NCBI GenBank assembly: GCA_008636045.1
Contig: SNRW01000001.1
Span: forward strand, 1 to 64,000
DNA length: 64,000 nucleotides
Source: Streblomastix strix
Lineage: Eukaryota
Reading direction: 5' to 3'
Shown here: piece after piece, positions 34,801-64,000 of the stretch
Numbering within the stretch: the first letter of the stretch is position 1
Layout of the letters: every line of letters begins with the position of its first letter
Made by a program: the position numbers and the translations under genes
The notes under the pieces: generated by a model
Seen by the model: the letters and a program-made list of their open reading frames with translations, nothing else
What the model was told of the DNA's origin: nothing
Database searches by the model: none

Positions 34801-37251
34801 CGAGGAAGATATGATTGTTATGGCAAAAGATAAAAAAAGAAAAGAAGATAAATTGAAAGTTGTATCTTAAATGGTCAAATCAAAGAACAAAGAACTCGAA
34901 ATAATGAGTCCTGAGTATGAGCACATGAAAATTGAAGGATCTCACATTGTGCTTGCTGCTATCCTGAACTTGTATGAATATATATATTTTTCTTATAAAT
35001 TATTCAATTATCATTTTTATTTAAAATTTAATTATCTCTCTTTTCTTATTATGTCTTAGTGATCCTAATTAGCGCATATAAAGGAAATCATTGGATCTTC
35101 TTAAAACTAGGATTGAAGATGCGGATGTTCCAACAAAGATTCGAATTGGACATAGTGGAATCTTCCTTGATTTGAAGTAACTTTTGGATCAAGTGTGTAA
35201 TTATTATAAATTAAATCCGAATGTGATGAAAATAAAATGAAAATTTATATTAATTAATAAATGATAATAAATAATAAAGAATTTATATTCGTCTTTATTT
35301 TTATCTTTTTTATAAGGTTCGATTGAATGATATGGACTAATATCAACAACTTCTATCTCCAAAAGCAGACAAAGGAACTCCTGGGAAACTTGGAGCTTAA
35401 CCTAAAGGTTCCGTAACAGATAGAGGAACTGGAGATAATTCTAAAAAAGATTCTGAAGCTCGGCTGCCAAAGGAAGAAGAGATTATTGAAACTATTTGTA
35501 CAATTATTTACTATACGTTTGATGGAAACAAAGATGGAGCACAAGATGCATATGAATCAGAACTAGTATCTACACTACTTCCTTTCTACTCTCCACTATA
35601 CATAACATAATAACAAGTGATTTCTCTCAATGTGTAATCTTCTGCCATATAAGAAGCAAAGAAACAACAATAATCACAGAATCAAAGAGGACGTGTTTCT
35701 GGGTCAAATGTTGAAATTTAAATAGCTTAGCAAGGACTTAATTGCACAACTGGACTTGTTTCAGCTGAAAAATCTCTAAATTTGCTCTTTTCTCGTTTGT
35801 AGCGCATACACACAAGTTCTCTGTTCAAGATTATATTCCTTGGATCTCACGAAGAGCGAATGATGTTATTTGATCAAGGGATTATCTAGTTGCTAATGAC
35901 GTTACTTAAACATCCACAAAAACTAATCTCTTCTGACATCCTTGCCAGTTTGCACAACATGATAGTAGCTGAGCGTGAATAGGTTAAAGATGAAAAATAA
36001 AATGGACTCAGACCAAAAGGAGATGACGAAGATGGTATCTTAGATGAAGATGATATTTACAACGAAAAACAGCAATAAAAAGAAGATTAAGATGACTTTT
36101 TCACGACTCAAGTTGCAGGTCAAGATCAAATAAGGCATCCATTCAGACAGGTATCTTTGAATATTCAGACATATAATGAATTCAAATACTTTTTTTAATT
36201 TTTTCAAATTATATAGACAATAGAAGATTCTGGTGGAGTAAACATGCTAATGGATATATACAATGAAGGACTTTCACAACATTCATAGAACCTTGTTGCA
36301 ATCTGCATAAGTTTCTTGTACAGGAGTGAAGAACTTCCTTCAAAATATAGGTTATTTAATTTAATACAAATTATTATAATTTTAATATTAAGAAAAAGAA
36401 ATTTAGTTTAGTAAATCAAAAAAAAATTTTTTTTTAATTATTAATAATTTCGAAATCAAAATATTTATTTAGAGAGATATTCATGCATTTGAAGAGGCTC
36501 CTTGAAACAGCCGCTGGAAATTTACAAGCGAAAGGAACAAAAGCTGTAAAAAAATAACCTGCATAGAAACCAATTGTGAAACAATCACCAACCAAACTGC
36601 TGACAGTTTGCCAATTAATGATTTATGCGATTGTAGAAAGTTACATATAACTATATAAATACTTAAAATATTACTATGTATATTTTGAATATACCATTTT
36701 TTTCGTTTAGGATGGCGAAACAATTGTGGATGACAGTGATGATGATGATGAAGTGATTCACATGTAAGCGTTGATTGGACTTGGATATTTGGCTGCAAAC
36801 AGAAGTATTTTATTTCAATAAGAAAAACAATTCCCAGAAAAAGATTCAAATTTTATTTGCTTTATTTTTATTTAATCTTTGCTTTTTCTAGGCAATCACC
36901 GTGCCATCTTGACAAACAACTTCGTTGACATTATTTCCAAATTTATATTGTTTGCACTTTTTTATTTATTTTATTTTATTTTTTATTTATGTTCAAAATT
37001 CAGTGGAAATTCAGAGGAGGCTGTGAAAGGAGCAGCGTTGTATCTAGCATTCTAACTCGTATTGAATGGGGCGAGCGATACAAAGAACACAATGATTGAA
37101 ATTCTATAGATCGATAAAGTATTTATTTTAAATCAAAATTGATGTAATTTTTATTTTATTTTATTTTTAATAGATTCGCTAGTTACAAGGATATCCTAAC
37201 CCAGTTATATCTAAGAATGCTACCAATCTAGTTCAAGAGATGATTAGGTGA
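31892..37251 (+). CDS. Large coiled-coil protein with N- and C-terminal ARM-like helical regions, spliced
   Basis: Very long E/K/Q-rich heptad region at ~33.0-34.9 kb, open only under TAR=Gln; helical repeats at both ends; several introns; ends LVQEMIR-TGA. Confidence 0.75.
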
Positions 37252-37920
37252 ATATGAGTTTTTTAAAAAACTGTGATAAAGATGTTTTGTTAGAAATCAA
37301 ATAATTTAAACTAACATCCCACTAAAGAGTAGATATTTTATTTTATTTTTCCCTTTCTGAACTATTTAACAAATTGTCGTTTTTGACTATAAGAATTATT
37401 TCATATGTTGTCAGTGATATTTCTAGTAATTTTAAAAGAATTAATAAACTTCTTGAATAATATTTTTTCTTTAGATTCTCACTTAATAATATTATATTAA
37501 AAAATCCAAATAAAAAAAAAATTTTCCATTCTACTGAGAAAAGGAAATTATAAAATCTCTATGAAAAAACTAAGATTATAAAAGTATAAATATAAAATAA
37601 CTGTTAAACCAATAAAATATTTAATTTAATTCGTTGATCTTTCATTAACCTTTAATGATTCTTATAGAATTGGTTTAATTTCACGCCCTCGTGTGTATCT
37701 TATTCATTTTCTTTGTTGCAACTTCTATACCAGCTCTTCTTTATAAATAATTTCTTATGTCAATCTTTATCTTTTTATAATATGACTTAATGAAAGTTTT
37801 CACTCTTTAATCAATTTTTTTTACTCCTAATCTTAATTCTAAGTATTTGAGATATCTATTGAATCTTTCTCCATATCTCTTAGATATTGAGTATATGAGT
37901 ACCTATTATAATCGTGTATC

Positions 37921-38847
37921 TAAGAAATAGTTAAAAAATAAACAGATTTAATTGAGGCGGGAGTTTAAGGATTAAATTGAACCAATTATTTAAACAGTGA
38001 AATTAAACTAGTGGATGAATTAGTGATATATAAGGCAAATAGAGCGGCATATTTTATTAAAGATGGTCCATTTATCATATATAGCTTTGGAGCAAAATTA
38101 TCACAACTAATTCAAGTGAATTCAGAAACATAATAAACCGTATATAAATTATTCTCGACAACCAATAAAAAAGTACTACCGCCTAATACGAAATATATGC
38201 CTATTCATGTAGAATTGCAAGAGTTTTCCGCTATGTGTTTGTTCAATGATATTTATGATAAATCGTCAGCTGTTTAGGTAGCCGTTAGTGGATAATTAAA
38301 TACGTATGATTGCGAATTTCAGGGAACGTATATCCTTGATAACTATGCGAACAGCTCAAACCCCAATGAATCGGTATCAAATGAAGCAACTTATGATTCA
38401 GTCATCGACGACGTAATAATAGAACATGAAAATTAATTAGGCTAATCACTACAATCACAATGTACGATAACAAATGTATTCAATTAATTTATAATTAATG
38501 ATTTTTTCCCTTCTTCAGTATATAATACGTACTATATCGTTGATGATGGCTCTTGCAGAGTATGCGTATTCAATTTATATTTCGAATCAAAAGGTTTGCA
38601 AAGTAGAACTTAAGAAGTAGGTCTTATTCTTGATTCTGTAGTACCTGCTGATGGTAAAAGTTTGGGTTTTCCTGCAGCAATATATAGGACATAGGGCGGA
38701 AAATAGAATAAATTTTCTGTGAATTATTTTATTGTAAATGTTTAATTTAAAATGCTATTCTTTAAATTATCATAATCATAAAAGTCAATTCCATAAGATT
38801 CAGCTGATGTCTTCTAATATTACACTAGTGAAATGTATTATTTGTGA
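37921..38847 (+). pseudogene. Beta-rich putative fiber/spike protein, copy A
   Basis: About 290 open codons after an in-frame TGA at 37978; aromatic/beta-strand rich; C-terminus (..FKMLFFKL..DSADVFQYYTSEMYYL*) aligns with the ORF ending at 63826. Function is inferred from position and composition only. Confidence 0.45.
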
Positions 38848-38849
38848 AA

Positions 38850-39010
38850 AACATCAACAAAAAGCATTATTTTGGAACATGAAATTGACGTGGGTAGTGA
38901 ATAACTTTTGACTACACCAAGTGCATCGAGCGCATCGAGTCAGAAACTTTCATCGAAAACTGTGGCCAACTGGCCAACTGGCCAATAATTGAGAAAAATA
39001 ATTATAATTT
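38850..39010 (+). repeat. Left arm of imperfect inverted repeat (pairs with ~39860-40030)
   Basis: actacaccaagtgcatcgagcgcatcgagtcagaaactttcatcgaaaactg (38911-38962) is the near reverse complement of cagttcttgatgaaagtttttgactagatgcactcgatgcactcggtgcagt (39919-39970); weaker similarity extends on both sides. Confidence 0.85.
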
Positions 39011-39032
39011 CAAACGTGAATGCTTATATTTT

Positions 39033-39812
39033 TCATTGGTTCTATAATTATATTCTTCGACTCTGTATATCAATTGGTAATTTTTATCTTAAATATTATT
39101 CGTTTCTTAATATATCAAAATCTTATCTAAATTAACCATTTTTATCTGTACCATAACTATAATCAAGAAATGAACTAGCAACATCTAACCTTTTACCTAT
39201 TATTTAGCCGACAGGACCGAAAGCTGCAAGTATTGGTTTAGCAAATGGTTTTATTAACGATTTATAAACGTTATCATTAGCCCATTATAGACCTTTCCTT
39301 AATTTTTAAACAAATTACAGTCATTATCGGTTAATTCAAATATCGGTTAATTCACAGTAGATTTAATTCGCAGTATTTGAACTAAATGACTTATATTTTA
39401 AAAGTTTTTGCTTAAGTTTTATCACTTAATTCGCAGTAACAAAGTATGTAATTCACAGTAAATTTTAATCAAATCCTTATAAATTCTAATTAATTAAAAT
39501 TTAAAAAAAATTTATGATAAATTTACATACAAATTGCATAAATTGAATATTTTATTTCTTTCAATAAGACTAAAACCAATAAAAATATGTCAAAGAAATT
39601 CTAAAAATTTATTTTTTAAAAAAAAATTTAATTATTTTTATTTATATAATTATTTTATTATTGAATTTCTCTAATTTATATAAAAATTTTAGTAGTTTTA
39701 TGTATAAAATCAGCGAATTATCTATAATTCACAGTTCCATTTTTTGATAAATCGTTTTTTGAATTAACCGATAATGACTGTATTTGATTTTATTAAAGAT
39801 GCCAATCGCTAT
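39033..39812 (-). pseudogene. Small amphipathic Gly/Ala-rich virion protein (lytic-peptide-like), copy A, interrupted by a MITE
   Basis: Removing 39318-39780 plus one TA restores the frame: IAIGIFNKIKQFVQKLRKGLQWANDNVYKSLIKPFAKPILAAFGPVGQIIGKRLDVASSFLD...QFRQDF...YLRQKLPIDIQSRRIQL; aligns with 63464-63793; start codon is ATA. Confidence 0.75.
39318..39780. mobile_element. 463-bp non-autonomous MITE of the Tc1/mariner-pogo type
   Basis: Perfect 23-bp TIR CAGTCATTATCGGTTAATTCAAA; TA on both flanks (39316-17, 39781-82); repeated internal TAATTC(A/G)CAG motifs; excision restores the interrupted ORF. Confidence 0.92.
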
Positions 39813-39859
39813 AAGTTTATTAATAATAAAAATAAAATTTTATATGTATTATTTTAGAT

Positions 39860-40030
39860 TTGAATATATGATTTTATTTTTAATATTTCTCACTTCTGGC
39901 AGAATGACAGGCTGATAGCAGTTCTTGATGAAAGTTTTTGACTAGATGCACTCGATGCACTCGGTGCAGTAAATAGTCATCCATTAACGAAGCCATTTAT
40001 GCGTACCATTTTCAATAAATTTATTGATGT
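39860..40030 (-). repeat. Right arm of imperfect inverted repeat (pairs with ~38850-39010)
   Basis: See left arm; contains the 9-bp array gatgcactc-gatgcactc-ggtgcagt. Confidence 0.85.
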
Positions 40031-40138
40031 GTTATGACTCGGTGCTTCAGCCGCAGGCGGAGTCTTCGACATAATCAAAGTATTTATGTTTAATTAAGTA
40101 TTTAATTAATTATTTTGTTTATTAATTGAATGTAAAAG

Positions 40139-41840
40139 ATGAATAGATTCTTAATGAAAGCCACACATTTACAACAAGCGGGGACCATTGAAGAAACATT
40201 GTCAGATAATGCTATTGTTCTAATCACTAATGACGGAGAACATCATTATTCTATCAAAGAAATTAAACCAGTCCAGCGTTATTTGATAAGGAAATTATTA
40301 TAAGTTTATCAGACGCAGACCAAAATATCACATGGATATAAAATTTGTTCTTGTCGGTAGTGCTAACTGCTAATATCCAACTTGATGATAAATTTGATAA
40401 AATTGACGTATCATATAAAGACGGATTGGTTCTATTTGTAGGTTTCAAATCAAGTTCAAATCTTATTAGAGAATACACAATCTATCATAGAAGTAAAACC
40501 ATTGATGGAAGTCTATAGTATGACGCAACAACTGAATCATTCATTTATAACACTATCAAGCCAAAAAGTGAGAAAAATAATAGAAAACATATATATTTTT
40601 TGCATGAGAATAATCAATAATTTGATATTTCAGCGTGTGAAACATATATAAGTATGCGAAAAATTGGAGAGCTAACAGGAAATCAAACAGCGGTTCCACA
40701 TACAATTCCAATACGTTTCAAAGTCAATGTTCCACTTGATGACTTCTTGATATTCTCTACATTTACTGATTATCTTAATAGCGTATTTCGTTATTTAAAA
40801 ATAAAATTCAATATAAATCCTCATGCATTCGTTTTCAGTCAAATGTATTCAATTATTTCAATCGCTAAATATTATATTATGAATAATGATGAGTTATTGG
40901 ATAATAGTTAGTAGAAGTTAAAGGATATTGGTTTGATGTTCAGAAATTGGAGTCCGATATTCTAATTTACTAAATAATTTACGTAATTGGGATCCACTGC
41001 TGATTTAATAGCAGGACTACATACGGAACCACTAACTGAATCAGGATTGAAGAACTTAGTACGCGACGTAAGACCCGTTACTACGCACATAAAAAATTGT
41101 GTCATTATCAAGGTAACGGCTAATATGGCAAGTTATAAAGCTACTGATGCATGTCTCAATCGAGTCCGATAATTCTACAGTTAACGTCCATTTGTCGTAC
41201 CTGCGGAAAAAGTAGAAAATGGCCATCTCCAACATCTTCTACACTAACGGGAATACGAACATCTTAAAATATTCTTCTGTTTCATGTGACGGATTTCTGT
41301 CTTCTATTTCCATAGGATGTTAGAGCTACAACTTGCTTTGAAAATCCTTGCTATCAGAACATGTAAGTAACCACCTGTAGTAATAACTTTCCAGATATGC
41401 CTATGAATACTCTTGACCAATAATTCTTCTAATTACAAATAAAGGCGAGCAATTTAGACCTTTCAATCGAAGCCACTGAAGAATTTGAAGATGCTTTAAC
41501 TACGCCAAGAAATACAGCTACTCGAAGACTTAATCCTCATACTGAATTAATAAACTTTTTGATAACTCTTTAATATGAAAGAAACAGCAATGGAGCATTA
41601 ACTTTCGATGGACTAGACACTCAGAACTAAAACACATCTATCGATCTCAGAGGAGTACCAATATATCAAGGAGCAACAAATTCATACTACAATGTTGATA
41701 CCAGGGGAAAGAGACCATCATCTCCGATTTTATGAACAGTTCATGATACATTTTGGTTGTTTTCAATCTCTGCAGGTGAAAGCTGCATATATGATACTAA
41801 CCATTCATTTGATGAAATTATAAAACCGTTAAGTTCTTGA
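40139..41840 (+). pseudogene. Major capsid protein (putative double jelly-roll), copy A
   Basis: ~565 codons with frameshifts (~40.27 and ~41.22 kb) and an in-frame TGA near 41.73 kb; FVGFKSSSNLIREYTIYH, VPLDDFLIFSTF, LKIKFNINP, FPDMPMNT, LTFDGLDT; collinear with 61688-63410. Capsid assignment rests on size, beta-rich pattern, context and recalled resemblance to protist Maverick capsids. Confidence 0.7.
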
Positions 41841-41981
41841 AAAGTTAATTCATTTATTTTTATACATTTTTATTTTTTTAATATATACATAATAAACACC
41901 TAAACATTAATATTGTTAATTAAATCAGTCATTAGTTATACATATATATATAAATATTATTTTTTATTCATTTTATAATAA

Positions 41982-42377
41982 ATGGCTTCAAATATGACTT
42001 CAGTTTAAAATATAACGTTTTACATTTGAACATAAAATGACGGAGTTGTTATTGCTTAGAACGATTAGAATGGAGTTAGTTTTGCATTACTATACGCGTT
42101 TGTAAATTCAGATAATTAAAGAAAAATTGTATTCTGCTAATGCCATTGCTTAAACTAAGGCATTAGCGAGGACATTTCTGTTCATAGTTCAGTGGTTCAA
42201 GAAGAGTAGTATTTCGATAAGTTTGTTGGCTATTGTAATGAATAACGTGTTTATAAGCCATATTTCTAATACAACCACAACAGATATTTATACATATGGT
42301 TCCGTTAAAACTAAGAATTATTGGATATTAATTAATAATAATTAAAATTTGTTCTTGGTTTGAAGCTGGAATACTGA
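41982..42377 (+). pseudogene. Small minor capsid (penton-like) protein, copy A
   Basis: ~131 codons with one in-frame TGA (42027); FVNSDNQRKIVF, SVHSSVVQEEQYFDKFVGYCNE, IWFR, KFVLGLKLEY*; homologous to 61266-61658. Confidence 0.55.
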
Positions 42378-42668
42378 TAAAAATTATTTTTTTTAAGGGC
42401 TTAATTTAGTCCCATGATTGATACGAATATTTTTGTTCAAATCGTCAGGCCTCGCTACCTCCAAAAAAATGGATGTAGGTTATTACTAGTACATTTTTGT
42501 TTAAATAGGGGGTCAGCTCAATTTGAGCCAACTAAAATTAAGATAAAAATACTCGTGATTTTGAGTCGGCTTCCAAAAAAAAGGCGGACCAATTAATGCT
42601 CAAACAAATATTATTTCAAAATTAATCGTTTTAATTTATATAAATTCAACTTTTTATCAGTATATAAA

Positions 42669-43510
42669 ATAAAAGCAGAAATAGCAACAACATAATAAAT
42701 TACTTCAAACAATGAAACTTTCATTAGTGGTTCTTATCTAATGTTCGAAATAATAATTCGTAATAAGGATGGATATGTAAATTCTACAAAAGTAGTTTAA
42801 TAAATCAATGAAAAAGAGAATTTTAATAAGAAACTTAAAATATAATATGATAATCAATGTGTAAAGAGCATAAAGAGTTTTAATGAATTAATGTGCATGC
42901 TAGAAAACCAGCCAGCCCATTCTTGAGAATCAATTAGTTAATAAATATTTAAATAATGTTAGAGGAACATATATTTATAAAGATTTAATAAACATAATAT
43001 GTATGAAAACATCAATAAAATCTTTATATCTTACCAATTAGATAATCAATGTATATAATTCGAATTCTAAGCTCAAGAAGATTAGACATCCATGGCTTAT
43101 TTTACAGAAGAAAACGTTTAATTAGTTATAGAAGAATTAAAAGTAGTAATAAATTAAAAAGATAATGATTTAAAACAATTGAAACCAAGAGCTGTTCAAT
43201 AAGCCAAAGAAACTGCATATGTTCTAGCCGTTTAACATATAGAGGTCGATGATTAAAATAATATAATATTAAAAGTTCGAATAAGTGATATGAAATGGAT
43301 TTGCCGTAAATTGATGCAAGATTTAAAAGATGCATTGTCGTACTATGATTAAGAATATATTGCATTGACCAAAAATGAAGCTATCAAAAAAATATTTAAA
43401 TAAAAATATGGAAAGAATTTAATTTAAAGGAATCATATATATATTCAATGAAGATTTAACAGATTATGTCATAAATAAAATTTAAGAATATATAAATACA
43501 TAATTTGTAC
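42669..43510 (+). pseudogene. KilA-N domain protein, copy A
   Basis: IIIRNKDGYVNSTKVV and VRGTYIYKDLINII (KilA-N signature segments); disrupted downstream; homologous to 60300-61191. Confidence 0.75.
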
Positions 43511-43914: not shown

Positions 43915-44990
43915 CTTTTTTCGATGCTTTCATATATAGTATCTTTCTCTGTTTCCCTTTTGCTTTCTTTATCATGAACGCTGTGTTATATACTTTAATC
44001 TATTCTTTTCAAATTGATATCTCAAAATTCTCCATCAATTCCTCTTCTAATATTATCTAATATTCCTTCGCTTCATCTTCTGTACCTGTGAATATCGTTA
44101 TCTTAGTTGTTGGTCTAATCTGCTGATGTTTTATTAATTTTTCAGTTAGAGGAGGAATCCATATTTGACAAAATCTTTCATTTTAATTATTTTCCATTGT
44201 CATGAACACCAAGCTGCTTGAACCCCATTCTTGTTTGGTGTTTATTCATTACCATTGTCGGTTTCACCATTCTCAAGATATCCTCCCTATATTCTTTCTT
44301 CCTGCTCTTTATAACAAGTCCAACTGTTCCTGCTAATCTGTCTCTGAGTCAATCACTATTACAATCTGATAATTGGGTGCGTGTATCGGTTTTTTGTTTG
44401 TTTGATTTTGAATTGATCTTGTTGCCTTTTAGGAGTTTGGGGGACATATCTTCAGTAACTGGGGCTACATCTGCCTTTTTTCTCCGATTCTACTGAGGTG
44501 TGAAGTGGTTAAGAGTGTCGGAGTTGGCTCTAGCTTCGGGACTCCCTAAGGACTTATTGGGTACGGACTTTAGTTAATCTGTTTTGCTTCTAGTATCATG
44601 GTCATTGGTTGGTTGCATCCTTTGTTTGGGTACTACAACTTTCCCTTTAACTTAACCTAATTCTGAAGGTGTGGTGATTAGAGAAGGTTGGCCTTTGGGT
44701 TGTGAAGTGTTTGGATTTCTTAATTCTTATTTGGAATGAGTTGTATGAGATAATCCTATTTCTCCTGTATTATTATTTACACTATCTTGTTGATGTTGGA
44801 TTTCGTTGTTGGATCATTATTTGTTTTTGTTTCTTTCAATTTATGTATCATTTACTTGCTAGTTATTTTTTAAATCTCTAGTGCTATTGATTAATTGGTG
44901 GTTTAAGTTTCCATTTTCGTTTGTTGCTGCCTGTAACTGAGTCCGGCAACCGTTTTCTACAAGTTCATCAGTGGTGAGAGAAAAAGAAGC
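43915..44990 (-). mobile_element. Truncated, degenerate DIRS-like/Ty3-related retrotransposon fragment (low-complexity upstream region plus start of reverse transcriptase)
   Basis: WKIIKMKDFVKYGFLLQ, then FTGTEDEAKEYQIILEEELMENFEISI*KEQIKVYNTAFMIKKAKGKQRKILYMKASKK, which matches the RT N-terminal pattern (..F.IKK..GKWR.ILD...LN). It breaks off before the catalytic motifs; GC content is higher than the flanks. Confidence 0.65.
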
Positions 44991-45000
44991 CGGCCCTTAC

Positions 45001-45833
45001 ATGACAAATGCATCTCAGTTATTCGGTCCTGAAAACCATATGGTATTAATATCGATATGAGTAGTAAATGAAAAAGGATGATGCCCTCACATTGATAAAC
45101 GCAGTGATTTGCCCACATCAGAAATACCCAGTGATATTACGAATTGCTGACATATGAAAAACGAATAGATTATCCAGAACCGAAAATCGAGGAATAAATT
45201 TGATGTTAATAAAGAAATACGGATAAAATAATAAACAATAACATTTATGAATATCATTAGTAATGAAAAATAATTGATATGATTTATGATATACATTTAC
45301 GATAAAAAATAATTGATATGTTTTATGATATGCGTTAATAAAAATTAATAATTGATTTGATTTCCGAACCTCACAAACGAATAGGATTTAAGCAATATTT
45401 CGGGCACCATCCTTTTTCATTAACTACTTATAGCCCAAATCAATGATTTGACCGATGCGTACTAACTTATATTGATTATTTGACTATGTTCGATTAAGTT
45501 TTCATTGATGAAATTGGGATAATGGTACCGAGTAACTGGTCGACGGATGAAATACATTATTTGATGAAATTGATGGTGATGAACAGTTTCAGAATTGATT
45601 AAAATGGTTGTTTTTGGAATGTACGAGTAGGATATGACCTTAGGATAGCCTGTGAGAGTTATATGAAAAATTAGGTTTTTAATCAGAATTTTGACCTATT
45701 ATAAATTTATTTTACTATTATTAAATAGACTGAAAAATCATGGAAAAATTTAAGTTTTTTGAATGACCTGAGAATCAATGTAATAGTTAATGTTGATACG
45801 CTGATCACAAATATAATGTTTAAAATGAGTTGA
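45001..45833 (+). pseudogene. Degenerate hypothetical ORF containing a ~39-bp tandem duplication
   Basis: Coding-like frame with several TGA stops and a frameshift; duplicated aaaaataattgatatg.tttatgatat at ~45266-45345. Confidence 0.3.
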
Positions 45834-45999: not shown

Positions 46000-46350
46000 A
46001 TAATTATCCATGTGGGACAGTTTTGGGATGGGACAAATCCGTGGACTCCTGTGAAAAAATGCTGCCATAATGCCATTCATGCCATAAATTTGAATCATGG
46101 ATAAATAATGTGAATTGACCATGTCAGCTTCGCTGGCTTTTGCAAAAGCAAAGTGCACCGAGTCAACCGAGTGCACCGAATCATAAGTTGACAGGTTGGA
46201 TTCCCGCCATATATTAGACATAATGCCATAAATTTGAATCATGAAGGAATGATATGAATTGTCCGTGTGTCCTGAGTGTCCTGAATGTCCTGAGTGTCCT
46301 GAGTCACAAGCTGAACAGCTCGGATTCCCGCCATTAACCATAATGTCATT
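46000..46350 (+). repeat. Three tandem diverged copies of a bipartite repeat (9-bp array plus GCCAT triplet) upstream of the primase-helicase gene
   Basis: gtgcaccga-gtcaaccga-gtgcaccga (46152) and gtgtcctga x4 (46267), each followed by ggattcccgccat..cataatg(c/t)cat; tgccataaatttgaatcatg occurs at ~46080 and ~46224. Confidence 0.85.
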
Positions 46351-49146: not shown

Positions 49147-49189
49147 AATTATTTTTGCTTGGAATCGTGGAGAATTAATGTGAATGAAC

Positions 49190-49345
49190 TAGTGTCCTGA
49201 GTCGAAGAATTACTATGATTATTGTGTTCTAGAATCATGGGGAATTGATTCAAAATAAAATAGTGTCCTGAGTGACCTGAGTGTCCTGAGTCCGAACTCG
49301 CCATCTTTTTTTCCTGCCATATCAGACATAATGCCATATTGTTCA
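49190..49345 (+). repeat. Left arm of second inverted repeat (pairs with ~49925-50075); also a direct-orientation relative of the 46.2-46.35 kb unit
   Basis: attgtgttctagaatcatggggaattgattcaaaataaaatagtgtcctgagtgacctgagt is the near reverse complement of actcaggacactcaggacactagtctattttgaatcaattctccatgattctagaacacaat. Confidence 0.9.
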
Positions 49346-49438
49346 TTTCGAATCATAATTTGAAGGGCTAGTGAACGTAAATAAATAGGGTGCTGCCATA
49401 ATGGCATTTGCTCAGATTGCTCAAAAAATAATTAAAAG

Positions 49439-49735
49439 TCATTTCAGATAAAACTTATAATGATTGAATTTATTAAGTCTTGTTTCAGTATTCTATATCT
49501 TAGTTAGTCCTTCGAATATGAGTTCATCATATGTAATTAGGAGATATCCATTTATGTCTAATGTTAATAATTTATTTATCAGTTAATCCTTCTCGAAACT
49601 TCTTCTCATTTCTCTCAATGAATTTATCTAAAATTATCTAGCATATTCATTGTAATTATTTTTATCATCGTAATCGAATGGATTATTGTATCTAGATGTA
49701 ATTTTGAATTTATGAGGATCATTAGTCTTTGCCAT
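49439..49735 (-). CDS. Small hypothetical protein (98 aa) between inverted repeats
   Basis: Uninterrupted ATG..TGA frame under TAR=Gln (MAKTNDPHKFKITSRYNNPFDY...HYKFYLK), preceded by a T-rich upstream motif. Confidence 0.55.
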
Positions 49736-49924
49736 TTGTTTTGGAATAAAAAATATAATATGATGAATTAAAATGAGTTAAATGAAAGTTCTGGATAAAT
49801 TGATTGAAATAAACTAGTGTCCTAAGTCGAGGCTTTTGAAATTGGATATGGCGCTATAATAATATATTGCAATTGTATCAAGCTAGTGATGTGGAATATT
49901 AATATCAAATGTCCAAATCAGAAA

Positions 49925-50075
49925 TCTAATGGCAGAATGGTAGATATGGCAGGTATTTAGGCATGAACTTTGTAACTCAGGACACTCAGGACACTAGTCT
50001 ATTTTGAATCAATTCTCCATGATTCTAGAACACAATTTTATCTGACATAATTTGACTCAGTACACTCAGTACACT
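49925..50075 (-). repeat. Right arm of second inverted repeat
   Basis: ctcaggaca x2 and ctcagtaca x2 arrays; atggcag..atggtag..atggcagg is the reverse complement of the GCCAT triplet. Confidence 0.9.
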
Positions 50076-50237
50076 CTGATAAATAACACCATTTGCACAC
50101 ATCATCTCATTAATCATACCATTAACGCACATCATTAGCACAAAAATAAATCCGACCGACGGACCGACCAACTATTATTTTTGTCAATTTTATGGTTTCT
50201 ATCCTGCACACTTGCATACTTGAACAAATCACTTCAT

Positions 50238-50697: not shown

Positions 50698-52029
50698 TCA
50701 ATTTCTTATATTAAATTAACTTTTATAATTTGCTGGTAACGAATTGATATCATCACTAATGAATTTACAGTAATATAATGGTAACTCAATAACATTAATT
50801 TTATCATATGAATTCAATAGTTTACACTCAACATTACCGTTCTTATAAGTAATGAATGTAGCCAATTCATTGAATTAACGTCTTTATTTCTAAAATATTA
50901 TAGGTAATCTGGAGAAATCAGCGTGGATCATTAATATATTTCCACTTTTGAAATTTAATAAATTCTCCTGTTATTGTTTTTGCATCACCTATTCCAATTA
51001 TGCTTATTTTTATCGTATGAATTTATCTTCTAATTTTCTATTATACTACACTTATTTTGGAGTAAATCTGTTCATAAATGCAAGATGTGGTGTTTTATTG
51101 TAAATCTCTACCATTTATTACATCTAACTTGGTGTTGCAAATCTTATTAAATCTTATCCAAACCCATTTCTAATTGTACGAATGACGCTATCATCTACTC
51201 TATTATGCTATGTGAACGGTGAACCTGTAAAATATAGTGAAATCTTATTATCTTCACAAAATTATCTAATTATATTAGCTGTAAATCCAGTTTCACTATC
51301 ACCTCTAAAATTGTTAACATATACTTAATTAATGAGCTTCTTTAATGCTGCTAAAATATACGTAGCATTCTTCTCATCTATAATTAATGGAATCACAATT
51401 AAATATTTTGTATTAATGTTGATCGCAAATAAATAATGCTATCTCCTTCGAGTAACTGGATTGACACCAAATACTAGATCAATCTCCCAAGATCCTAGTT
51501 TTGGAGAAAAATATGGGCGTTAGAGTTTGTTTAAAGGCTTTGCTTTAATGTCTTTGATTTATGTTTATTATATTATCTTCACTTTATTAATTTTTTCATA
51601 TTATTTGATCTTAGATTTGAAAGGAAATAATGAAAGAGGGTTTTGAGGCTATTTGATTCACTAGATTTATTCAGTAACATATGATCTATTAGAGTCTTAG
51701 CTTCTGATAGATCTAGCTCTTCTTAATGGAGCATTATACTTTTATGCTTCTGTTTAATATATTTCGAACCAATCAAGTAGAGTCTTTCCACCAATCTGTA
51801 TTTCATCTGCATGATTAATTAAAACAATTTGTTCTTCCTTACTTGGTGTGATTCGCATATTTGATATAAACTGGTCAAATTTCATTATTCCATTATTTGT
51901 ATTCGCTAATCGTGTGAGTTACTGTTCCATATTATGTGCTTCATATTCTATTTATTCATCTATTTATGCAAATCTTGCCAACAATAATTAGTAAATTTAA
52001 TCTTAATTAGCTTATAGATCTCTGTTCAT
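50698..52029 (-). pseudogene. Retroviral-type (rve/c-integrase) integrase
   Basis: GSWEIDLVF, YLFAININTKYL, FRGDSETGF, HNRVDDSVIRTIRN, YNKTPH; 444 codons with one in-frame TGA at 51658-51660. Confidence 0.88.
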
Positions 52030-53211: not shown

Positions 53212-56200
53212 TCATTTAATAAAAAATCTATCAGCTTTAATTCCATATATGAACGGCAAGCATGATTGTTTATGTAATACTATCATTTTCGTCATCGACC
53301 CAGTTATTGCATTTCTACTCATCTGAAGTCGCGACATAATGCCATTCCTCTATGCTAGTGTTGTGTTTACCGCAGTTGTTACTGTTCCATTATTAATGCA
53401 ATCCACAAACTTTTGTTCATTAATCTATGGGTTTTGATTCAAAATAATACCCTTCAAAACTATCTCATTATTAATAATATAATTTTTAGGTGATAGAGCT
53501 ATATAATTCAATCCATATTTTTCGATTCCTATATTTAATATCTATTTTTATCCGTTATCAGTATACACACAATCCTTATAAGTGTCAAAGAACCCCTAGT
53601 CCTTGATGACTTCTTCAAATAGTTGATCTGGACCTCTATTTTGATTGCCACTAATTGCACATGTCAAACTATCTGTATTATATTAAACGAAGTGCATCCT
53701 ACTCATGTCGTACGCTTTATACATAAAATTATATATGAAATTAACGTAGCAAAATTTTGCAGAATCAAGTACGAAGTAAGCAACTTATAAACATGTATTG
53801 CAACGACAGTTTTTCCTATCCACTTATACAGCGTATAGATCTTCATTTAATTCGGTCGAATGAATGAATCCACCCAACATATGTTATATGAATGTTTTAT
53901 TTGCAGAGAGTAATCTTGTATTAGAATACTTTTCACTATTCAACGCATCGCCTCCAAATGCTGAATTTAATATCAACTTACAGAATTATCTTAGTCCTTC
54001 ATTTTTAGCATCTTTCGCTTACTATCGAAGATTCATAAATTACTTTACAAATAAATTGAAATTAGTGTGTTTCATAAATGTTGTAACACTAACTATATCA
54101 TCTATTATGAAATGACATGTATCCATTAGTATCCATAAATAATAATTGTTGAATGACATTACTTCATTATTTGTATCTACTAAATTTGTTAATTTTCGTT
54201 CTGTTTTAACATGCGGAAGTTAGTGATCGACTAGATGATTATATATAAAACTCTCCAATTGTCTCTTTATTAGTTGTGATTTCAATATTTCTTAGAATTG
54301 GACCCCAATTAATCACTACATTAATATATCTTTCATCAGTGTGACCTCTAACTTCAGCAACAAATAATAACATTTTATCGACTACTAATGGATCATTAGA
54401 GAACCTACTAGTGTCATATATTAGTGTTTTACATCGATTTTGATCAGTAATCTTTTCAATAAGTTATGCAGGCATATATATTATATGATTTGTGTATGGA
54501 TTTAAGGCATTCGGTTCACTGCTCATAACACTAGGATATTAGCTATGAAAATCTAACTAAACTACATGAGTCATCACATTATCTGAATATATTGAATACA
54601 TACATTTATTTTTTTAATCAAATTCGAAATGATTAATTCTAGGTTCTCCTGCAATATTATATCTATGCATCACATTTGATATACCTCCAGTGATTCCTTT
54701 ACGCAATAATTGATATCCTTCATCACTCGTTAATGTCATGGGTAATTATTTAAATAACGCATATTTCTTTAACTATACCATTTGTTTCATCTAGTTTTCA
54801 TCACGAATAGCTTTACATACATTGCAGTACAAACAGCATGGAAGTACGTTATCTTTTGAGTGTCCTTTACTATTATCTATTCTATCTAATGTGGGCCTAT
54901 TTTTCCATGTGAATCGTGCATCAAATATGTGGCATCGTTAATTCTTGAATATTTCTTTAAAATAATCATAATCATCAATTGTTACATTATTGCTTGAATT
55001 TCTATTCATTTTATTATCTTATTCAATATAGCTTTCCACTTTTGCTCTCCAATAATTCTATGTGATATCGATCAATTTGTCAGTTGATTCATAATTGTAA
55101 TTACCTTTTATATCAAAATCACTATAACATATAGCATATTTGATCGCATTAGCGCATTGTGACATAGATATATTAGGTAGCATATCAACCTTGTATTTGA
55201 ACATTAACTCAATCAAGTAATCTATAGGTTCAATAAGAACTCTAGTATCTAATATATTGTAGTGCTTCAAGTAATCCCATCATGTTTTGTGCTTTGCTGC
55301 TTCGACTAGGTACTCTTTGTACTTTACTTCATTAAGTTTCTTATTTCGTAATTTATTATCAAATGTTTCGATCGGAAATGGTTCAATTTTATTCAGTTCA
55401 TTCATGTAATTATTAGTGTTTATGAATTCATGAGGAAATCTACCATTTTTATAAGTCCCATTTCCAAAATCTCTTACAGCATCCTTTAATTTATTTTACA
55501 TAGAATAGATCTTAAAATCAACGAATCTCAAATGAATGCTTGAAGACTAATGCTTCACAATTATCTATTTTGCGATTGTGCTTGATCCCAAATACTTAGA
55601 GATAGGCCAATTCTTTGATTTCAAATTCTTAAACAACACTGACGCATCAAATTTTGCTTAATTGAACCCAATTACAGGTAATTCAAAATATTATGGGATT
55701 GTTTCATCTATATATTTATTATCTTTCTTAACTTATTTCGCTTCTTCAAATAGCTATTCTAACCACTTATCTAAGAAATCATCTGTTCGAATATCGTAAT
55801 AAAATGAATGGATATCGCTAGCAAATTTGACAGTTGAATCAATAGCGTATGGAATTAGAATTGCAGTAACTTATGAACTATCACCGAATTTTTCATTAAC
55901 TTTATTTTCTAATGTTTCAATATCATATGTTATGTAATATCTTGTAGGCTTGAAAAAATGAGTTAGATTGTTCGCTAATAGATACTTATAAGTCTTGTTA
56001 GATAAAATATGAGGAACAAACGGTTTTGCAAACTTCTCTAAGATGACTTTCTTAACTATTTTTCCATCATTCTTTTGACATTTTTTCATATGATTTCTCA
56101 TCTGTACTTATAGATTTTTATCATTTATTCTGAATGCTTACCTATGGCATATATTACAGTAACGAAATCCAGTTAATGCTTCTACATCAGATATATACAT

Positions 56201-57715
56201 AATGTGAGCATTAATTCCATCATTAATGAATAAGATATTGAAGTGCTTATCCAAATCATTAGCAGTATAATTTTATGTTAATTCATAATGTTGTGGATTG
56301 TCTTCAAACGTATGCATGTGCACGTTAACCTGTTCTTTTTTAATGAAGTTATCAATATCTCCTACGAAATCGAATCCTTAATAATTATCTTGAAACCCCA
56401 CTCCATTTACTCTTGAAAATATACGCTTAGCTTCTGCGATTCTAGAACAATCCATCCAACGTTTATCCTTTGAATTAGGCATTGTGATGAATGAATACGC
56501 TGTCCAGAAACATAGATTCACCTTATAATCTACATAATAAATCTCTTTTCGTTTAATATGCTACTTTAATGATGGAATAGCCGCACCTGCTAATGGATAT
56601 CGAAAAATAAAGAGCATTATTTAGAATATTGATACTATTTTTTCATGAGTATCTGTGTTAGTTCTCTCTTACATGGTTCCTATAACTGTTCGAAGATACT
56701 ACTTGTACATATTAATGTTATCTCTAGATCGTATTTCTAATGGAGCTCTTCTTTCTGAACTTGCATCTACTAGAAATATATATTTGTATTTAATTGTTTA
56801 ATCTTCATTATTACCATTAACACTTTCAATTAACACACCAAAATCAACAGCTAGTTTAAACACATTACCTTTTTCTTTATCATATACGGAGTCCAAGTAT
56901 TTATCTAAATCGGCTAATGAAGCAATATTACTATAGTATTATTTTGTTGGTTTGATTTAATTAGTTGATGATAAATTATACGATTTGTATGAAAGAGTGC
57001 CTGTTTCTTTATTGTATCGATTTAATGCAATATTCTTAATCCTACTGAATTTCGCTTCATTCTATATGTCACATAGCATAATCACATCATTATCCGTATT
57101 TAGATGATGATACACATATTATTCATGAGTTCTAATGTAATCGCTAATTTCTTATTAGTCTGTTTCGAATAGTATATCGATGTTCATATCCTCCACATTA
57201 TGAAATTCATCTAACAATGATGCTTATCTTGCTTATCTATCTTCATCTTATTTTCTCCTACGTTCTTCTATCTTTTATGCTCTTAATTAATGCTGCTATT
57301 ATTTATATCGTTCTAGATCGAAAATATCATCTTCATCTAATTGTTCTGGATCGAACTCTTCTCGTAATTCTTTTATGTCTAATTCACGTTATTTTTATAA
57401 TTATTCTTATTCCTTTTATATCTATTCTTCTCGTATTAACCGTTATTATTCCCGTTAATTGAACCATTTTCGAACACGATTTTATATAACAGTTGCTGCT
57501 TTGGATTGTTCCATATATATATTACGTGAAACTACTGCATTGATCGCTTATTCCACAGCATTAACGTTATTACGTTAACCATAGAATCCGATCTTTGTCA
57601 GTATAGAACTTAGCGCTGATCTCTTCATATTATTACTCGCATTTATGTCTGTATTTGGATCGTATAATTAGAGTAATCGATTAACGTCTGCAATTGATAT
57701 CTTTATTCAAGTCAT
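53212..57715 (-). pseudogene. Protein-primed family B DNA polymerase (~1500 aa) with long N-terminal extension
   Basis: Exo I YITYDIET, Exo II VIGFNQAKFD, KNGRFPHEF, YLKHYNILDT; LRKGITGG; motif A SLDFHSQYPSVM; motif B KLILNSAFG; motif C QYNTDS; ALSPKNY, LKG. TGA at codon 3 and a +1 frameshift near 54245. Confidence 0.92.
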
Positions 57716-58669: not shown

Positions 58670-59045
58670 GTTTTGAGTAAAAGTTGGTTATCGTATTTAT
58701 TCTATTGCATATTCTCTTTATTAATCTATTGGTTACTCTTGTGGTTACTTTTATATGTTCCTAAACTGATTATTCAATTATTGATCTAATAGTTTATGGC
58801 GCTTCCGCTATAGTTCTTTATTCAATTTAATCAGCTAAATTCCAATATTTTTCTTAAATTCATCGAAATGCTTATGCTGTTTCGTTCAATATAGTTAATT
58901 ATTCTTATTATCTTTAACGACCTTTATGTTTATGCTAATTGTATATTTGTTCTTCTGCATTACGTAATTCATTAAAGAATTCATCATTATCGCTTGCAAT
59001 TTACCGAATATCTCTAATTTCATTGTTTAACTCTTCTGCACTCAC
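58670..59045 (-). pseudogene. Degenerate small coiled-coil ORF
   Basis: SAEELNNEIRDIRQIASDNDEFFNELRNAEEQIY... with an in-frame TGA and no ATG start. Confidence 0.3.
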
Positions 59046-59096
59046 TTGTTAATAACAAAACGTTCATAAGTGATTGAAATAATTAATAATAACCAA

Positions 59097-59870
59097 ATGT
59101 CTTTAACTAGTTACGTGAATCAATTACTTAGTAAACAGAAAACTAATAAACATGAAGTATAATCTATGATTCATAAAGAGCTCAATTTCTCATATAATTC
59201 TATCAATCTTCTTATAGGATAGCGAGGAAACGGTAGTTCATATAACATATTCAAAGAGCTAATCAAATTGAGTTGGTTACCTAATTAGTGTTACACGTTA
59301 TTCATATATGTTATTGATAGCAATAATGATATCACATATATGATGATGAAAGATTTAATAACTATTTCAACAAAAATAGTACCATATTCAGAAGTGAATG
59401 AAACATTAGATGAACTGATTGAATGTAAGAAAGCGTATGATGAACTAAATGAATATAAGTTAGAGAAATAAATGAAAGAAGAATCTAAAATAGCTATATT
59501 ATCTCACATTGGAGCAAAGGATTTTTCTATCAAATTTCCACATACAATAGTGTTGTTCGATGATGCAATGAGTATATTCAAAAATAAGAACAATCCACTA
59601 TACAAGAAGTTATTCAAAAATAGATAGCCAAGAATTACTTATTTCCTATGTTTGCAAGATATTATTGGGTTAGATGCTAGCATTAAATCAAACGTTGATA
59701 CTGTATATTTTTTTGGCGGATTCAATAGATAAAAATTCAATTTATTCTTCTATCAATCATCGCTACTGTTGGATAAAGAAACATTATGGAATGAATATGT
59801 GTAATTAGGTAAATGAGAAGCATTATTGGTATAATATAGTAATGATATAATTATTGTACGAGTTATTTGA
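59097..59870 (+). pseudogene. A32/FtsK-like genome-packaging ATPase
   Basis: Walker A-like LLIGQRGNGSS (Lys lost), Walker B IVLFDDA, KNRQPRITYFLCLQ and IKSNVD motifs typical of A32 ATPases; 258 codons with an in-frame TGA at 59814. Confidence 0.85.
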
Positions 59871-61687: not shown

Positions 61688-63410
61688 TCAAGCAGTTACT
61701 AATCCAATAACCTAATTAAATGAATGAGTTGTATCATATATGCAAGATCTTCCATCTCTAGGACTGAATAGCCAGAAATTATCGTGAACTGTGCACAAAA
61801 TTGGAGGAGGTGGATGTTTTCCATTAGTATCAACATTATAGTAGGTATCAATTGCACCTTAGTATAGTGGTTATCCTCTTAGTTCAATTGAAGCATTTTA
61901 GTTCTGGGTGTCTAATCCATCAAATGTTAATGCATTATTGCTATTACGTTCACATTAAAGAATGATGAAAAATGATGTATAATCAGTTACAGAATTATAT
62001 TTTCTAGTTGAATTTCCTGTTGGAGTTGTTAATGAATCTTCATATTCATCTGTAGCTTCGAATATATTATCGAGATTATTTGCAGTTATCTATATTGTGA
62101 AGAATTATTCATTAAGTGTATTCATGGGAAAATCTGGGAAATTTCTACTTAAAGTAGACAATTACATATTTTAATAACATGAATTTTCGAAGCAAGTAGT
62201 TTGTCTAGCGTCCTTAGGAAATAGTAAGCACATATCAGTAACGTGAGATAGCGGTATATTTTATAAAGCACATAATCCAGTAAGAGTAGCACCACTTGGA
62301 AATGCCCATGTTTCAATACATTATGCAGGTACGATAAATGGACACGATGAATAAAATTATCGTACACGATTAAGACATTCTTGTGAAGCTTTATATACAC
62401 ACATATTTGCAACAGCTGCAGTAATGATATAGTTTCTTAAAGAAATTGTTACTGGTTTGATATCATATACAAGATTCTTCAACCCTGATGGAGTTAGTTC
62501 TTCAGCACGTACTCCAGTAATCAAATCAGCAGTGCATCCAATTTATGTGAACATATTTGTGTATTAGAATGTGAGAGACCAATTACGGAAAAATAGATCA
62601 ATATCCCTAAGCTTATCTTGACCTGAGCTCAATAATTCATCTTTATTAATTGTATAATATCTAGTCATCGAAACTACTGGATCAATTTGGTAGAATATGA
62701 ATGCGTTTGGATTAATTTTGAATTTAATTTTAATATCACCAAACAGACTATTAGGATATTCAGAGAATGCTGAGAAAATGAGTAAATCATCAAGAGGAAT
62801 TGAAACAGAGAAATTAACTGGCATAACATATGGTGCAGCAGTTTGTGGAGCAAGTGCATCTGAAATATCCTTGATTCTAAGATATTTTCCACAATGTGAT
62901 ACATCATCTTTACGTACATTTTCATAGAGTAAATGAACTATTCTATTATTATTTTTCTCTGATTTGGGTTTAATAGTATTATAGATAAATTATTCGGTGG
63001 TAGAATCATTCTGAAGAGATCCATCGATTGTCTTTCCTCGATGATATAGAGTATATTCGCGAATTAGTTATGCAGATGATTTTAGTCCAACAAATATAAA
63101 TGTTCCAGCTCTATAAGATTCGCTAAATTAATCAAATTTATTATCGAACAATAGATTCATTGTAAAATCAAGAGTAATGAATGAATTTTATATCTATGTT
63201 ACGTCATGATCTGGATCGGTCAAACTGATAATAACTTCCTTGTCAAATAATGATGGCATTTATGATTCTGGCCTGATCTCTTTGATTGAAAAATGGTGTT
63301 GTCTATCATTCTAAAATGGTAGAATTGCGAAGGTCTTTAACAAATTCTCGATTGTTTCCAGATTTTGTTGTGTTGTTAGGCACACGTGTCTTCATAAGTT
63401 GGCGATTCAT
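61688..63410 (-). pseudogene. Major capsid protein (putative double jelly-roll), copy B
   Basis: ~573 codons, open apart from a 1-nt frameshift near 63380; FVGLKSSAQLIREYTLYHRG, IPLDDLLIFSAFSEYPNSLFGDIKIKFKINP, FPDFPMNT, LTFDGLDT, PPPILCTVHD. Confidence 0.75.
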
Positions 63411-63463
63411 GTTTAATTCTGTAAAATAAATCTGATTATATAATAGTTAATACGAATAGTGAT

Positions 63464-63793
63464 TCACTGAAATTCATTTCCAAGTAGTTATATCCGTTTA
63501 CTAATTACATCAATTGGAACATTTTTCCTTAAGTAATTGTCTTATTGGAATGTCTTAAAATCCTATCTGAATTGTTATTTTGATTATTATTTATTAGGTC
63601 CAAATAAAGCATCTACGGCTGATGATCCTACACTAATTCCTTTCGCTACCATACTTCCTGCTGGTCCCAAAGATGATAGAAGTGCATTAATTATGGGCAT
63701 TATTGGCTTGACTATTTTATCATTCATCCAATAGACTCCTTTACCAACAACTGAGATTAATTTTTTAAGCTTGCTGAGTATTCCCGGCGCCAT
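63464..63793 (-). CDS. Small amphipathic Gly/Ala-rich virion protein (lytic-peptide-like), copy B
   Basis: Intact 109 aa: MAPGILSKLKKLISVVGKGVYWMNDKIVKPIMPIINALLSSLGPAGSMVAKGISVGSSAVDALFG...QFRQDF...YLRKNVPIDVISKRIQL. Confidence 0.7.
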
Positions 63794-63825
63794 GATTTTA
63801 AACCGCAAAAATAAACGTAATCGCA

Positions 63826-64000
63826 TCAAATTATCAAATCATTGTCTAATAAGTGGTACATTCCACTAGCGCAATATTTATAAATATCAGTTGATGATTC
63901 AAGAATAACTTCTTGAACATTTTGCAAAAAGCAATATAACATTTTATAATATTAATTGAATCCGAAATAACACATATCTAACCAATTTATATATCCACCA
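63826..64000 (-). CDS. 3' end of putative fiber/spike gene, copy B (begins beyond the window)
   Basis: GGYINWLDMCYFGFNQYYKMLYCFLQNVQEVILESSTDIYKYCASGMYHL aligns with the C-terminus of 37921-38847. Confidence 0.5.

What the first reader, a model, noticed from the sequence alone, without database searches (positions are those of the whole stretch)
38850..40030. One virion gene is flipped between inverted repeats in copy A but not in copy B: candidate invertible cassette
Seen: in module B the fiber, lytic-like and MCP genes are on one strand with 32- and 53-bp gaps. In module A the homologous lytic-like gene sits in the same slot on the opposite strand, bracketed by ~160-bp imperfect inverted repeats that B lacks. 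Inference: the repeats mediated an inversion, either as a programmed switch for an entry protein or as a repeat-bounded cassette; they could instead be convergent promoters. I know of no described invertible cassette in Polinton-like viruses.
Basis: partly seen in the sequence, partly recalled or inferred. Interest (0 to 1): 0.78.

Follow-up and report, generated by a model that had tools for sequence, protein, structure and literature searches.

The report
Invertible gene in a protist Polinton
In one family of virus-like elements in the genome of a likely termite-gut protist, a small predicted virion gene sits between two mirror-image repeats and appears to lie either way round in different copies, likely flipped by recombination between the repeats rather than by a dedicated switch enzyme; the copy in this window is a broken relic.

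Summary
A and B are two subfamilies (the small gene is 38% identical between them) of a code-6, Streblomastix-like Polinton family. Of 59 A-type records, 22 gene models place the gene on the fiber/MCP strand. Four models, the window and 5 contig joints place it opposite; 32 are uninformative and 1 fold-back was dropped. Five co-oriented models read arm pieces in exchanged order, which puts the breakpoint in or near a 50-bp core (43/50 identical, as expected for a core that was once perfect). No fixed protein difference separates the orientations. No recombinase was found in 41 frames, and the gene keeps its own upstream piece either way, so a programmed switch is not supported; homology-driven flipping is likelier. 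Caveats: the co-oriented state rests on gene models from an assembly that contains fold-back chimeras, and no strand-changing joint was among 15 of 20 shown. Five paper searches found no invertible Polinton segment. The scan noted a similar repeat pair on other DNA (e1-7200742).

The parts
37897..38847 (+). 3' part of the fiber-like gene of copy A; the copy is truncated on the left
   Evidence: tblastn of related models starts at 37897; depth of related contigs rises from about 37957; stop at 38845-38847. The 'fiber' label is an inference from repeats in long relatives (PHROG 5004, unknown function)
38848..38912 (+). Left arm, outer part (left-specific; stays with the fiber gene)
   Evidence: 20/30 identical to the right outer part; tails of P0046, P0049 and P0085 match it and not the right outer part, 0/1000 shuffles each
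38913..38962 (+). Left arm core: 9-bp GAGTG-type repeats plus an A-rich stretch; likely crossover region
   Evidence: 43/50 identical to the right core, as expected for a once-perfect core at this copy's decay
38963..39030 (+). Left arm, inner part (8-bp repeats); travels with the 3' end of the small gene
   Evidence: read downstream of the gene in co-oriented models P0057, P0059, P0061, P0063
39033..39317 (-). Small amphipathic (lytic-like) gene of subfamily A, 3' part, 94 codons
   Evidence: 78-84% identical to full-length 104-aa relatives; 38% to the B gene; N-terminal hydrophobic moment 0.52-0.60 in P0036
39318..39780 (.). MITE, 463 bp, 23-bp perfect TIR, TA on both sides (Tc1/mariner-like; class recalled), inserted in the small gene
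   Evidence: 3 contigs of run X1 run on from 39316 into an uninterrupted gene start (table 7)
39783..39812 (-). First ten codons of the small gene; no ATG at the family's start position
   Evidence: compared with P0036-P0041
39813..39918 (-). Right arm, inner part and AT-rich leader; travels with the 5' end of the small gene
   Evidence: read between fiber and gene in co-oriented model P0054, 0/1000 shuffles
39919..39968 (-). Right arm core
39969..40033 (-). Right arm, outer part (stays with MCP)
   Evidence: weak match in P0059 just before MCP, 38/1000 shuffles
40139..41845 (+). Putative major capsid protein gene of copy A, frameshifted
   Evidence: 43-65% identical to the B gene in three frame pieces; fold not confirmed
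46079..46330 (+). Element B: tandem arm-like units (same 9-bp motif) ahead of the primase-helicase block
   Evidence: (D2, D18)
49174..50084 (.). Element B: second inverted arm pair (60/70 identical) bracketing a 98-codon gene at 49439-49735 (-)
   Evidence: stand-alone homologs P0073 and P0097; orientation in other copies not tested
50698..51657 (-). Element B: rve-type integrase
   Evidence: PF00665 E 7e-4, below the curated cut-off
53212..57628 (-). [quoted passage not shown]
   Evidence: PF03175 E 2e-6
61688..64000 (-). Element B: MCP, small gene (63464-63793) and fiber end, co-oriented, no arms

Best explanation
In subfamily A of this Polinton-like family the small predicted virion gene lies between two inverted copies of a repeated non-coding unit and appears in both orientations among genomic copies, likely because recombination or template switching between the two 50-bp cores flips it repeatedly, probably without a dedicated invertase. 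Shown directly: the arms, the window's orientation, and the MITE break. Inferred from gene models: the co-oriented state, and a breakpoint between the outer and inner arm parts. Inferred only: the unit is a duplicated promoter/origin element (it recurs in B around the primase-helicase block); the cores were identical in the active element; and they pair on displaced single strands during strand-displacement replication, or recombine in integrated copies. The gene carries its own inner leader and meets a core upstream in either state, so the flip would be close to neutral, changing at most read-through from the fiber gene and antisense or divergent transcription next to MCP.
For: Co-oriented: 22 of 59 A-type records (classified). 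Six hold fiber, gene and MCP in order in one model by alignment (P0060, 65, 66, 67, 69, 70), and P0072 does by inspection. Opposite: the window; P0047 (reverse-strand fiber tail, 80% over 49 aa, E 3e-21); P0046, P0049, P0085 (left outer arm); and 5 contig joints of run X1 from the fiber end or outer arm into the gene. Exchanged arm order in P0054, 57, 59, 61, 63. No fixed residue separates the orientations, and both span young to old copies: 0-24.5% from P0092 for 22 co-oriented rows, 0-16% for 5 opposite. Gene and MCP divergence correlate within co-oriented models (rho 0.73, p 0.005, n 13), so they look like single loci. A core of 43/50 fits a once-perfect repeat (P 0.5-0.65), whereas the outer 20/30 does not (P 0.004-0.01). 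The arms pair in the predicted single-strand fold (no shuffle control at that length).
Against: No DNA of a co-oriented copy was seen. In run X1 no strand-changing joint was among the 15 of 20 joints shown, and only the left half of the cassette was laid. The assembly behind the gene models contains fold-backs (P0084 reads MCP in both directions; identical models twice on one contig for P0083 and P0092), and one template switch in a core would create one exchanged junction. None of the 7 three-gene models shows arm sequence. The star-like protein set cannot count inversion events, and my attempt to find sub-lineages holding both orientations failed. The V/I lineage marker gives 4 co-oriented and 0 opposite for I, too few to judge. 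A 50-bp core is short for efficient homologous recombination (established knowledge). The full gene content of A elements is unknown, so an invertase is not excluded.
Confidence: 0.5

Rival explanations
1. One or two old inversions in the master lineage; both arrangements were then amplified as fixed sub-lineages and no longer flip.
For: The outer and inner arm parts are fixed left- and right-specific types across copies. Among copies with the I variant only co-oriented ones were classified (4 of 4). Protein conservation can hide lineage splits.
Against: Copies identical to P0092 over the aligned part occur in both states (P0049 and P0085 opposite, P0074 co-oriented), and no residue is fixed between the states. 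The core looks homogenised while the outer part is not.
Confidence: 0.2
2. A programmed, recombinase-driven switch that tunes the amount of a membrane-penetration protein in virions.
For: A single virion-module gene between short inverted sites, with breakpoints confined to the arms. Tyrosine recombinases are common in Polinton-like viruses (PMC10120064, passage). B has a second one-gene cassette of like build.
Against: No recombinase domain in 41 window frames; B uses an rve integrase. No alternative allele or promoter-less state is evident. The lytic function itself is untested (no Pfam hit for the B protein; only a weak PHROG tape-measure hit for the A protein).
Confidence: 0.13
3. One orientation, most likely the co-oriented one with arms, is an amplification or short-read assembly artefact.
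For: Fold-back contigs exist in that assembly. Most amplification chimeras are inversions primed at short complementary sites (PMC1855051, abstract). Short-read assemblies of such elements give false consensus contigs (PMC10120064, section 7). X1 showed only window-type joints.
Against: Three-gene co-oriented models need two switches at one locus, there are 6-7 of them, and most are diverged copies whose cores should no longer match. Divergence is coherent within loci. The window holds both opposite-type junctions, and B and its relatives show that co-orientation is a real state for this module (6 of 33 B-type models informative, all co-oriented).
Confidence: 0.1
4. The arms are ends of an unrelated transposon or mini-element that captured or re-inserted the gene.
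For: Internal repeats bracket apparently mobile modules in other Polinton-like genomes (bioRxiv 10.64898/2026.10.13.758929, section 13).
Against: The gene keeps the same slot as in arm-less B. The arm motif occurs in the window only inside the two viral elements (10 matches against 0.17 expected). The left arm starts directly at the fiber stop.
Confidence: 0.05

Closest known systems
Metamonada-group endogenous Polinton-like viruses (Bellas et al. 2023, PMC10120064; passages and section 7 read)
   Same: The paper reports MCPs from Streblomastix strix elements that use the host's TAA/TAG=Gln code; all named relatives found here carry that species label; B has pPolB, rve integrase and a primase-helicase.
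   Different: The passages read mention no internal repeats or invertible gene. Supplements were not read and may show these elements.
Repeat-bracketed replicase modules in Polisuviricotina (bioRxiv 10.64898/2026.10.13.758929; passages and section 13 read)
   Same: Internal repeats separate from the TIRs bracket a module, as B's arm-like units do around the primase-helicase block.
   Different: There the cargo is a replicase and the reading is mobility; 'inversion' occurs 0 times in that text. Here the cargo is one capsid-module gene found in both orientations.
Inverted-repeat isomerisation: herpesvirus segment inversion, plastid single-copy flip-flop (recalled, no call)
   Same: A unique segment between inverted repeats exists in two orientations without a dedicated invertase.
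   Different: Those repeats are hundreds of bases to kilobases long and near perfect; here the core is about 50 bp and the segment about 0.5 kb without the MITE.
Phage Mu G / P1 C invertible tail-fiber segments, Hin and Fim switches (recalled, no call)
   Same: Short inverted sites around or next to virion attachment genes.
   Different: They have a dedicated invertase and switch between alleles or promoter states; neither was found here.
Polinton-TIR-mediated inversion at C. elegans eri-6/7 (bioRxiv 10.1101/2024.01.15.575659; abstract and outline only)
   Same: Polinton-derived repeats are tied to inversion of a gene.
   Different: That is a host gene rearranged by insertions, not an internal virion-module gene of the element.

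Membership tests
Polinton/Maverick-like element | Protein-primed family B polymerase | tested here: met
   PF03175 E 2e-6, above the cut-off, in element B; copy A is a fragment without it
Polinton/Maverick-like element | rve integrase or tyrosine recombinase | tested here: met
   PF00665 E 7e-4 (below the curated cut-off) at 50698-51657 in B
Polinton/Maverick-like element | Double jelly-roll major capsid protein | tested here: inconclusive
   AlphaFold2 mean pLDDT 32.8; 0 PDB sequence matches; no Pfam or PHROG hit
Polinton/Maverick-like element | Packaging ATPase | tested here: inconclusive
   Candidate frame 58785-59813 has no ATPase family hit
Polinton/Maverick-like element | Terminal inverted repeats and target duplication | not testable with these tools
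   B runs off the window, A is truncated, and no genome is held
Programmed site-specific inversion system (Gin/Cin/Hin/Fim type) | Dedicated serine or tyrosine invertase nearby | tested here: not met
   None in 41 of the 128 long frames from 37000 onward that were scanned; the rest of element A is not available
Programmed site-specific inversion system (Gin/Cin/Hin/Fim type) | Identical short crossover sites in inverted orientation | tested here: inconclusive
   Core 43/50, longest exact run 11 bp; compatible with a perfect core at insertion
Programmed site-specific inversion system (Gin/Cin/Hin/Fim type) | Inversion switches an allele or a promoter state | tested here: inconclusive
   By anatomy the gene is unchanged and keeps a core upstream in both states; no expression data
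Inverted-repeat isomerisation (flip-flop) | Both orientations exist with the exchange inside the repeats | tested here: met
   22 co-oriented models against 4 opposite models, the window and 5 contig joints; 5 models with exchanged arm parts. The co-oriented state rests on gene models only
Inverted-repeat isomerisation (flip-flop) | Both isomers arise from one clonal molecule | not testable with these tools
   Only contigs of older runs were available
Inverted-repeat isomerisation (flip-flop) | Long near-perfect repeats | tested here: not met
   Shared core about 50 bp
Tc1/mariner-like MITE (39318-39780) | TIR with TA target duplication and an empty site in relatives | tested here: met
   23-bp perfect TIR and TA on both sides; empty site in 3 X1 contigs
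Tc1/mariner-like MITE (39318-39780) | Autonomous partner with a DD34D/E transposase | not tested
   No search was made
Membrane-lytic entry protein (adenovirus protein VI-like) | N-terminal amphipathic helix in a small capsid-module protein | tested here: inconclusive
   Hydrophobic moment 0.5-0.6 over the first 30 residues (no null computed); no homology to a characterised lytic protein found

The most novel reading that the evidence does not exclude
These metamonad Polinton-like viruses use a family of iterated-repeat sites as recombination targets and actively invert single-gene cassettes (the entry-protein gene in subfamily A, a different small gene in subfamily B), giving a eukaryotic DNA virus a phage-style switch over virion composition or gene expression.
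Probability: 0.13. Interest if true: 0.9.

Novelty: new variant of a known kind. Interest (0 to 1): 0.62.

Why it matters
No invertible internal segment in a Polinton-like virus turned up in five full-text searches. A one-gene cassette found in both orientations across dozens of endogenous copies gives a natural record of recombination at a defined 50-bp site. It also points to the cis-elements (probable promoter or origin units) of a virus group with almost no experimental handle, and it offers a route by which gene order and strand get reshuffled in these mosaic genomes. If a recombinase or an expression difference were found, it would be a phase-variation-like system in a eukaryotic virus.

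Tried and rejected
No whole genome is held for the window. DNA context for relatives was not found: viral contigs with MCP B, the arm motif, A2 and A3 gave 0 loci; genome contigs gave 0; the metagenome scan gave one locus, L001, an unrelated bacterial region. No RNA holder was listed. Reads could be laid only on 37000-39590, so the right arm and right junction were not examined in runs. Summed contig depth over the left core is about twice that over the gene (289,771 against 119,681-160,031), but the tool says depth is no copy number, so I did not count it. I first read P0043 as a hybrid arm; the targeted test matched its outer part to the left arm (0/1000 against 303/1000), so it is more likely a fold-back. 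A sub-lineage shared by the window and P0070 was rejected (1 of 26 MCP sites). Variation in the 9-bp unit as a lineage marker was rejected as weak, because B holds three variants in one element. Rows left unclassified or dropped: P0071 (a third subfamily, outside the 59), P0084 (fold-back), and P0043, P0045, P0050, P0064, P0088 (ambiguous, among the 32). The search with B's bracketed gene returned one stand-alone representative, so its orientation is untested. The MCP fold failed, so no fold search was run; the PDB sequence search gave 0; Rfam gave 0. The protein atlas did not answer. The paper on the S. strix assembly was not held, so its use of whole-genome amplification is inferred from its title in a reference list and from the fold-backs seen. 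My starting reading, a fixed subfamily trait (70%), was overturned.

Full report
Setting. The window reads in NCBI code 6. All named relatives of its viral genes are labelled Streblomastix strix, and the one run that holds the stretch is a termite gut metagenome, so the host is likely an oxymonad. It carries two related elements. B (about 45900 to beyond 64000) has a primase-helicase (PF19263), an rve integrase (PF00665, weak), an HNH nuclease, pPolB (PF03175), KilA-N and the capsid module. A is a truncated capsid-module fragment (about 37900-43450). Bellas et al. (PMC10120064; passages) place S. strix MCPs in a Metamonada group that uses the host code. I could not confirm the MCP fold myself.

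The observation. In B the fiber end, the 109-codon gene and MCP are on one strand with 32- and 53-bp gaps. In A the homologous gene is opposite to fiber and MCP (38% identity over 94 aa, E 6e-20). The arms align far above chance (126 against 33+-5, max 56 of 300 shuffles). Each has an outer part (20/30 identical), a 50-bp core of 9-bp repeats plus an A-rich stretch (43/50), and a side-specific inner part. Three contigs of X1 show the empty site. Without the MITE the cores are about 490 bp apart. Copy A is a relic.

A and B are subfamilies. The B gene found 33 relatives and the A gene a separate set of 104-aa proteins, 78-84% identical to it at full length. So the A-B contrast shows only that an inversion happened at some time. 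The test has to be made among A-type copies.

Both orientations among A-type copies. No DNA context could be fetched. I therefore used mis-spliced gene models, whose exons must lie in order on one strand and so report the flanks. There were 59 A-type records: 15, 21 (P0071 excluded as a third type) and 23. Twenty-three join the gene in sense to fiber, MCP or both; I dropped P0084 as a fold-back, leaving 22. Their MCP parts are mostly closer to A than to B (12 of 14 scored). Six hold fiber, gene and MCP in order by alignment, and a seventh by inspection. Four show the window's orientation: P0047 runs into the reverse strand of fiber (E 3e-21), and P0046, P0049 and P0085 into the left outer arm (0/1000 shuffles each). 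Thirty-two are uninformative or ambiguous. Gene finders favour same-strand fusions, so 22:4 is not a ratio. In run X1, five contig joints bridge from the fiber end or outer arm into the gene in the window's orientation, and none of the 15 joints shown (of 20) changes strand. X1 matches the window exactly over 846 bases at the left junction, so it may not be independent. Among B-type models, 6 of 33 were informative and all were co-oriented (only proteins up to 191 aa were searched).

Breakpoint. P0054 reads fiber end, core, right inner part, gene. P0057, P0059 and P0063 read gene, left inner part, then MCP (P0057 and P0063 with core, P0059 with a weak right-outer match). P0061 has fiber upstream and the left inner part downstream. 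So the inner parts travel with the gene and the outer parts stay with the flanks, which puts the exchange in or near the core. The window's gene is 16% diverged from an intact relative, which corresponds to about 7-8% per base under neutral decay. At that level a once-perfect core would now be 85-87% identical (observed 86%), while the outer part is too different to have been perfect (P 0.004-0.01).

One event or many. No residue is fixed between orientations. Both include copies identical to P0092 over the aligned part, as well as old copies. This fits a master that yielded both isomers throughout its amplification, but a star-like protein set cannot count events, and my lineage markers failed. 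This is the main open point.

Artefact check. The assembly behind the models has fold-backs. Amplification chimeras are mostly inversions (PMC1855051, abstract), and short-read assemblies of such elements can be false (PMC10120064, section 7). A single template switch in a core would give one exchanged junction and could explain each of the five arm-reading models. It does not explain the 6-7 three-gene models, most of them diverged copies, and gene and MCP divergence are coherent within loci (rho 0.73, p 0.005, n 13). However, none of those three-gene models shows arm sequence. I leave 10% for this rival.

What the arms are. The 9-bp motif occurs 10 times in the window against 0.17 expected, all within A and B. 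In B, units of the same build stand ahead of the primase-helicase block and as a second inverted pair (60/70 identical) around a 98-codon gene. In 3 of 5 sites the unit points at a nearby start position, which suggests a promoter or origin (inference). Internal repeats around replicase modules are described in bioRxiv 10.64898/2026.10.13.758929 (section 13), without inversion. An earlier unchecked note of this scan reached a similar reading on other DNA (e1-7200742).

Mechanism. No recombinase domain was found in 41 of the 128 long frames scanned, though most of element A is missing. The gene is unchanged by the flip and keeps a core upstream, so a switch has little to act on. I favour recombination or template switching between identical cores, during strand-displacement replication or in integrated copies (0.5), over a single old inversion (0.2), a programmed invertase (0.13), artefact (0.1) and transposon ends (0.05). 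The comparisons with Mu/P1 and with herpesvirus or plastid isomers are recalled, not tested.

Novelty. Searches for invertible or isomeric segments in Polintons or virophages returned 0 papers. One search listed 15 of 192 hits; two mention Polintons, one on a host gene inverted by Polinton insertions (abstract) and one seen only as a listing. PMC12220804 has no occurrence of 'inversion' or 'orientation'. Supplements were not read. Verdict: a real feature and a new variant of a known kind, interest 0.62.

Noticed in passing
window 49174-50084: A second one-gene cassette between inverted arms of the same build in element B (60/70 identical, 98-codon gene of unknown function); a candidate second invertible segment.
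   Followed up: partly
window 46079-46330: Tandem 144-bp units with the 9-bp motif at the left edge of element B; may be part of a terminal repeat or an origin/promoter of the primase-helicase block.
   Followed up: partly
window 14198-14918: A 720-bp AT-rich element with about 145-bp imperfect inverted ends (75%) and TTAA at both outer edges; probably another MITE, unrelated to the arms.
   Followed up: no
window 39318-39780: MITE with internal repeats of an 11-bp motif (5 copies); contig depth suggests further copies in the genome.
   Followed up: partly
window 44276-45253: Low-complexity, strand-skewed stretch between elements A and B with long frames and no Pfam hit; possibly a fragment of another mobile element.
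   Followed up: no
P0071: A third subfamily of the small gene, co-oriented with its MCP; arm status unknown.
   Followed up: no
P0064: A model in which the small gene lies upstream of the fiber gene on the same strand; a tandem element, a rearrangement or a chimera.
   Followed up: no
P0075: A 42-aa A-type fragment from a JGI/IMG record, suggesting the subfamily occurs in another data set.
   Followed up: no
Many public 'hypothetical proteins' of S. strix are mis-spliced models of these viral elements; they read non-coding arms as exons.
   Followed up: yes
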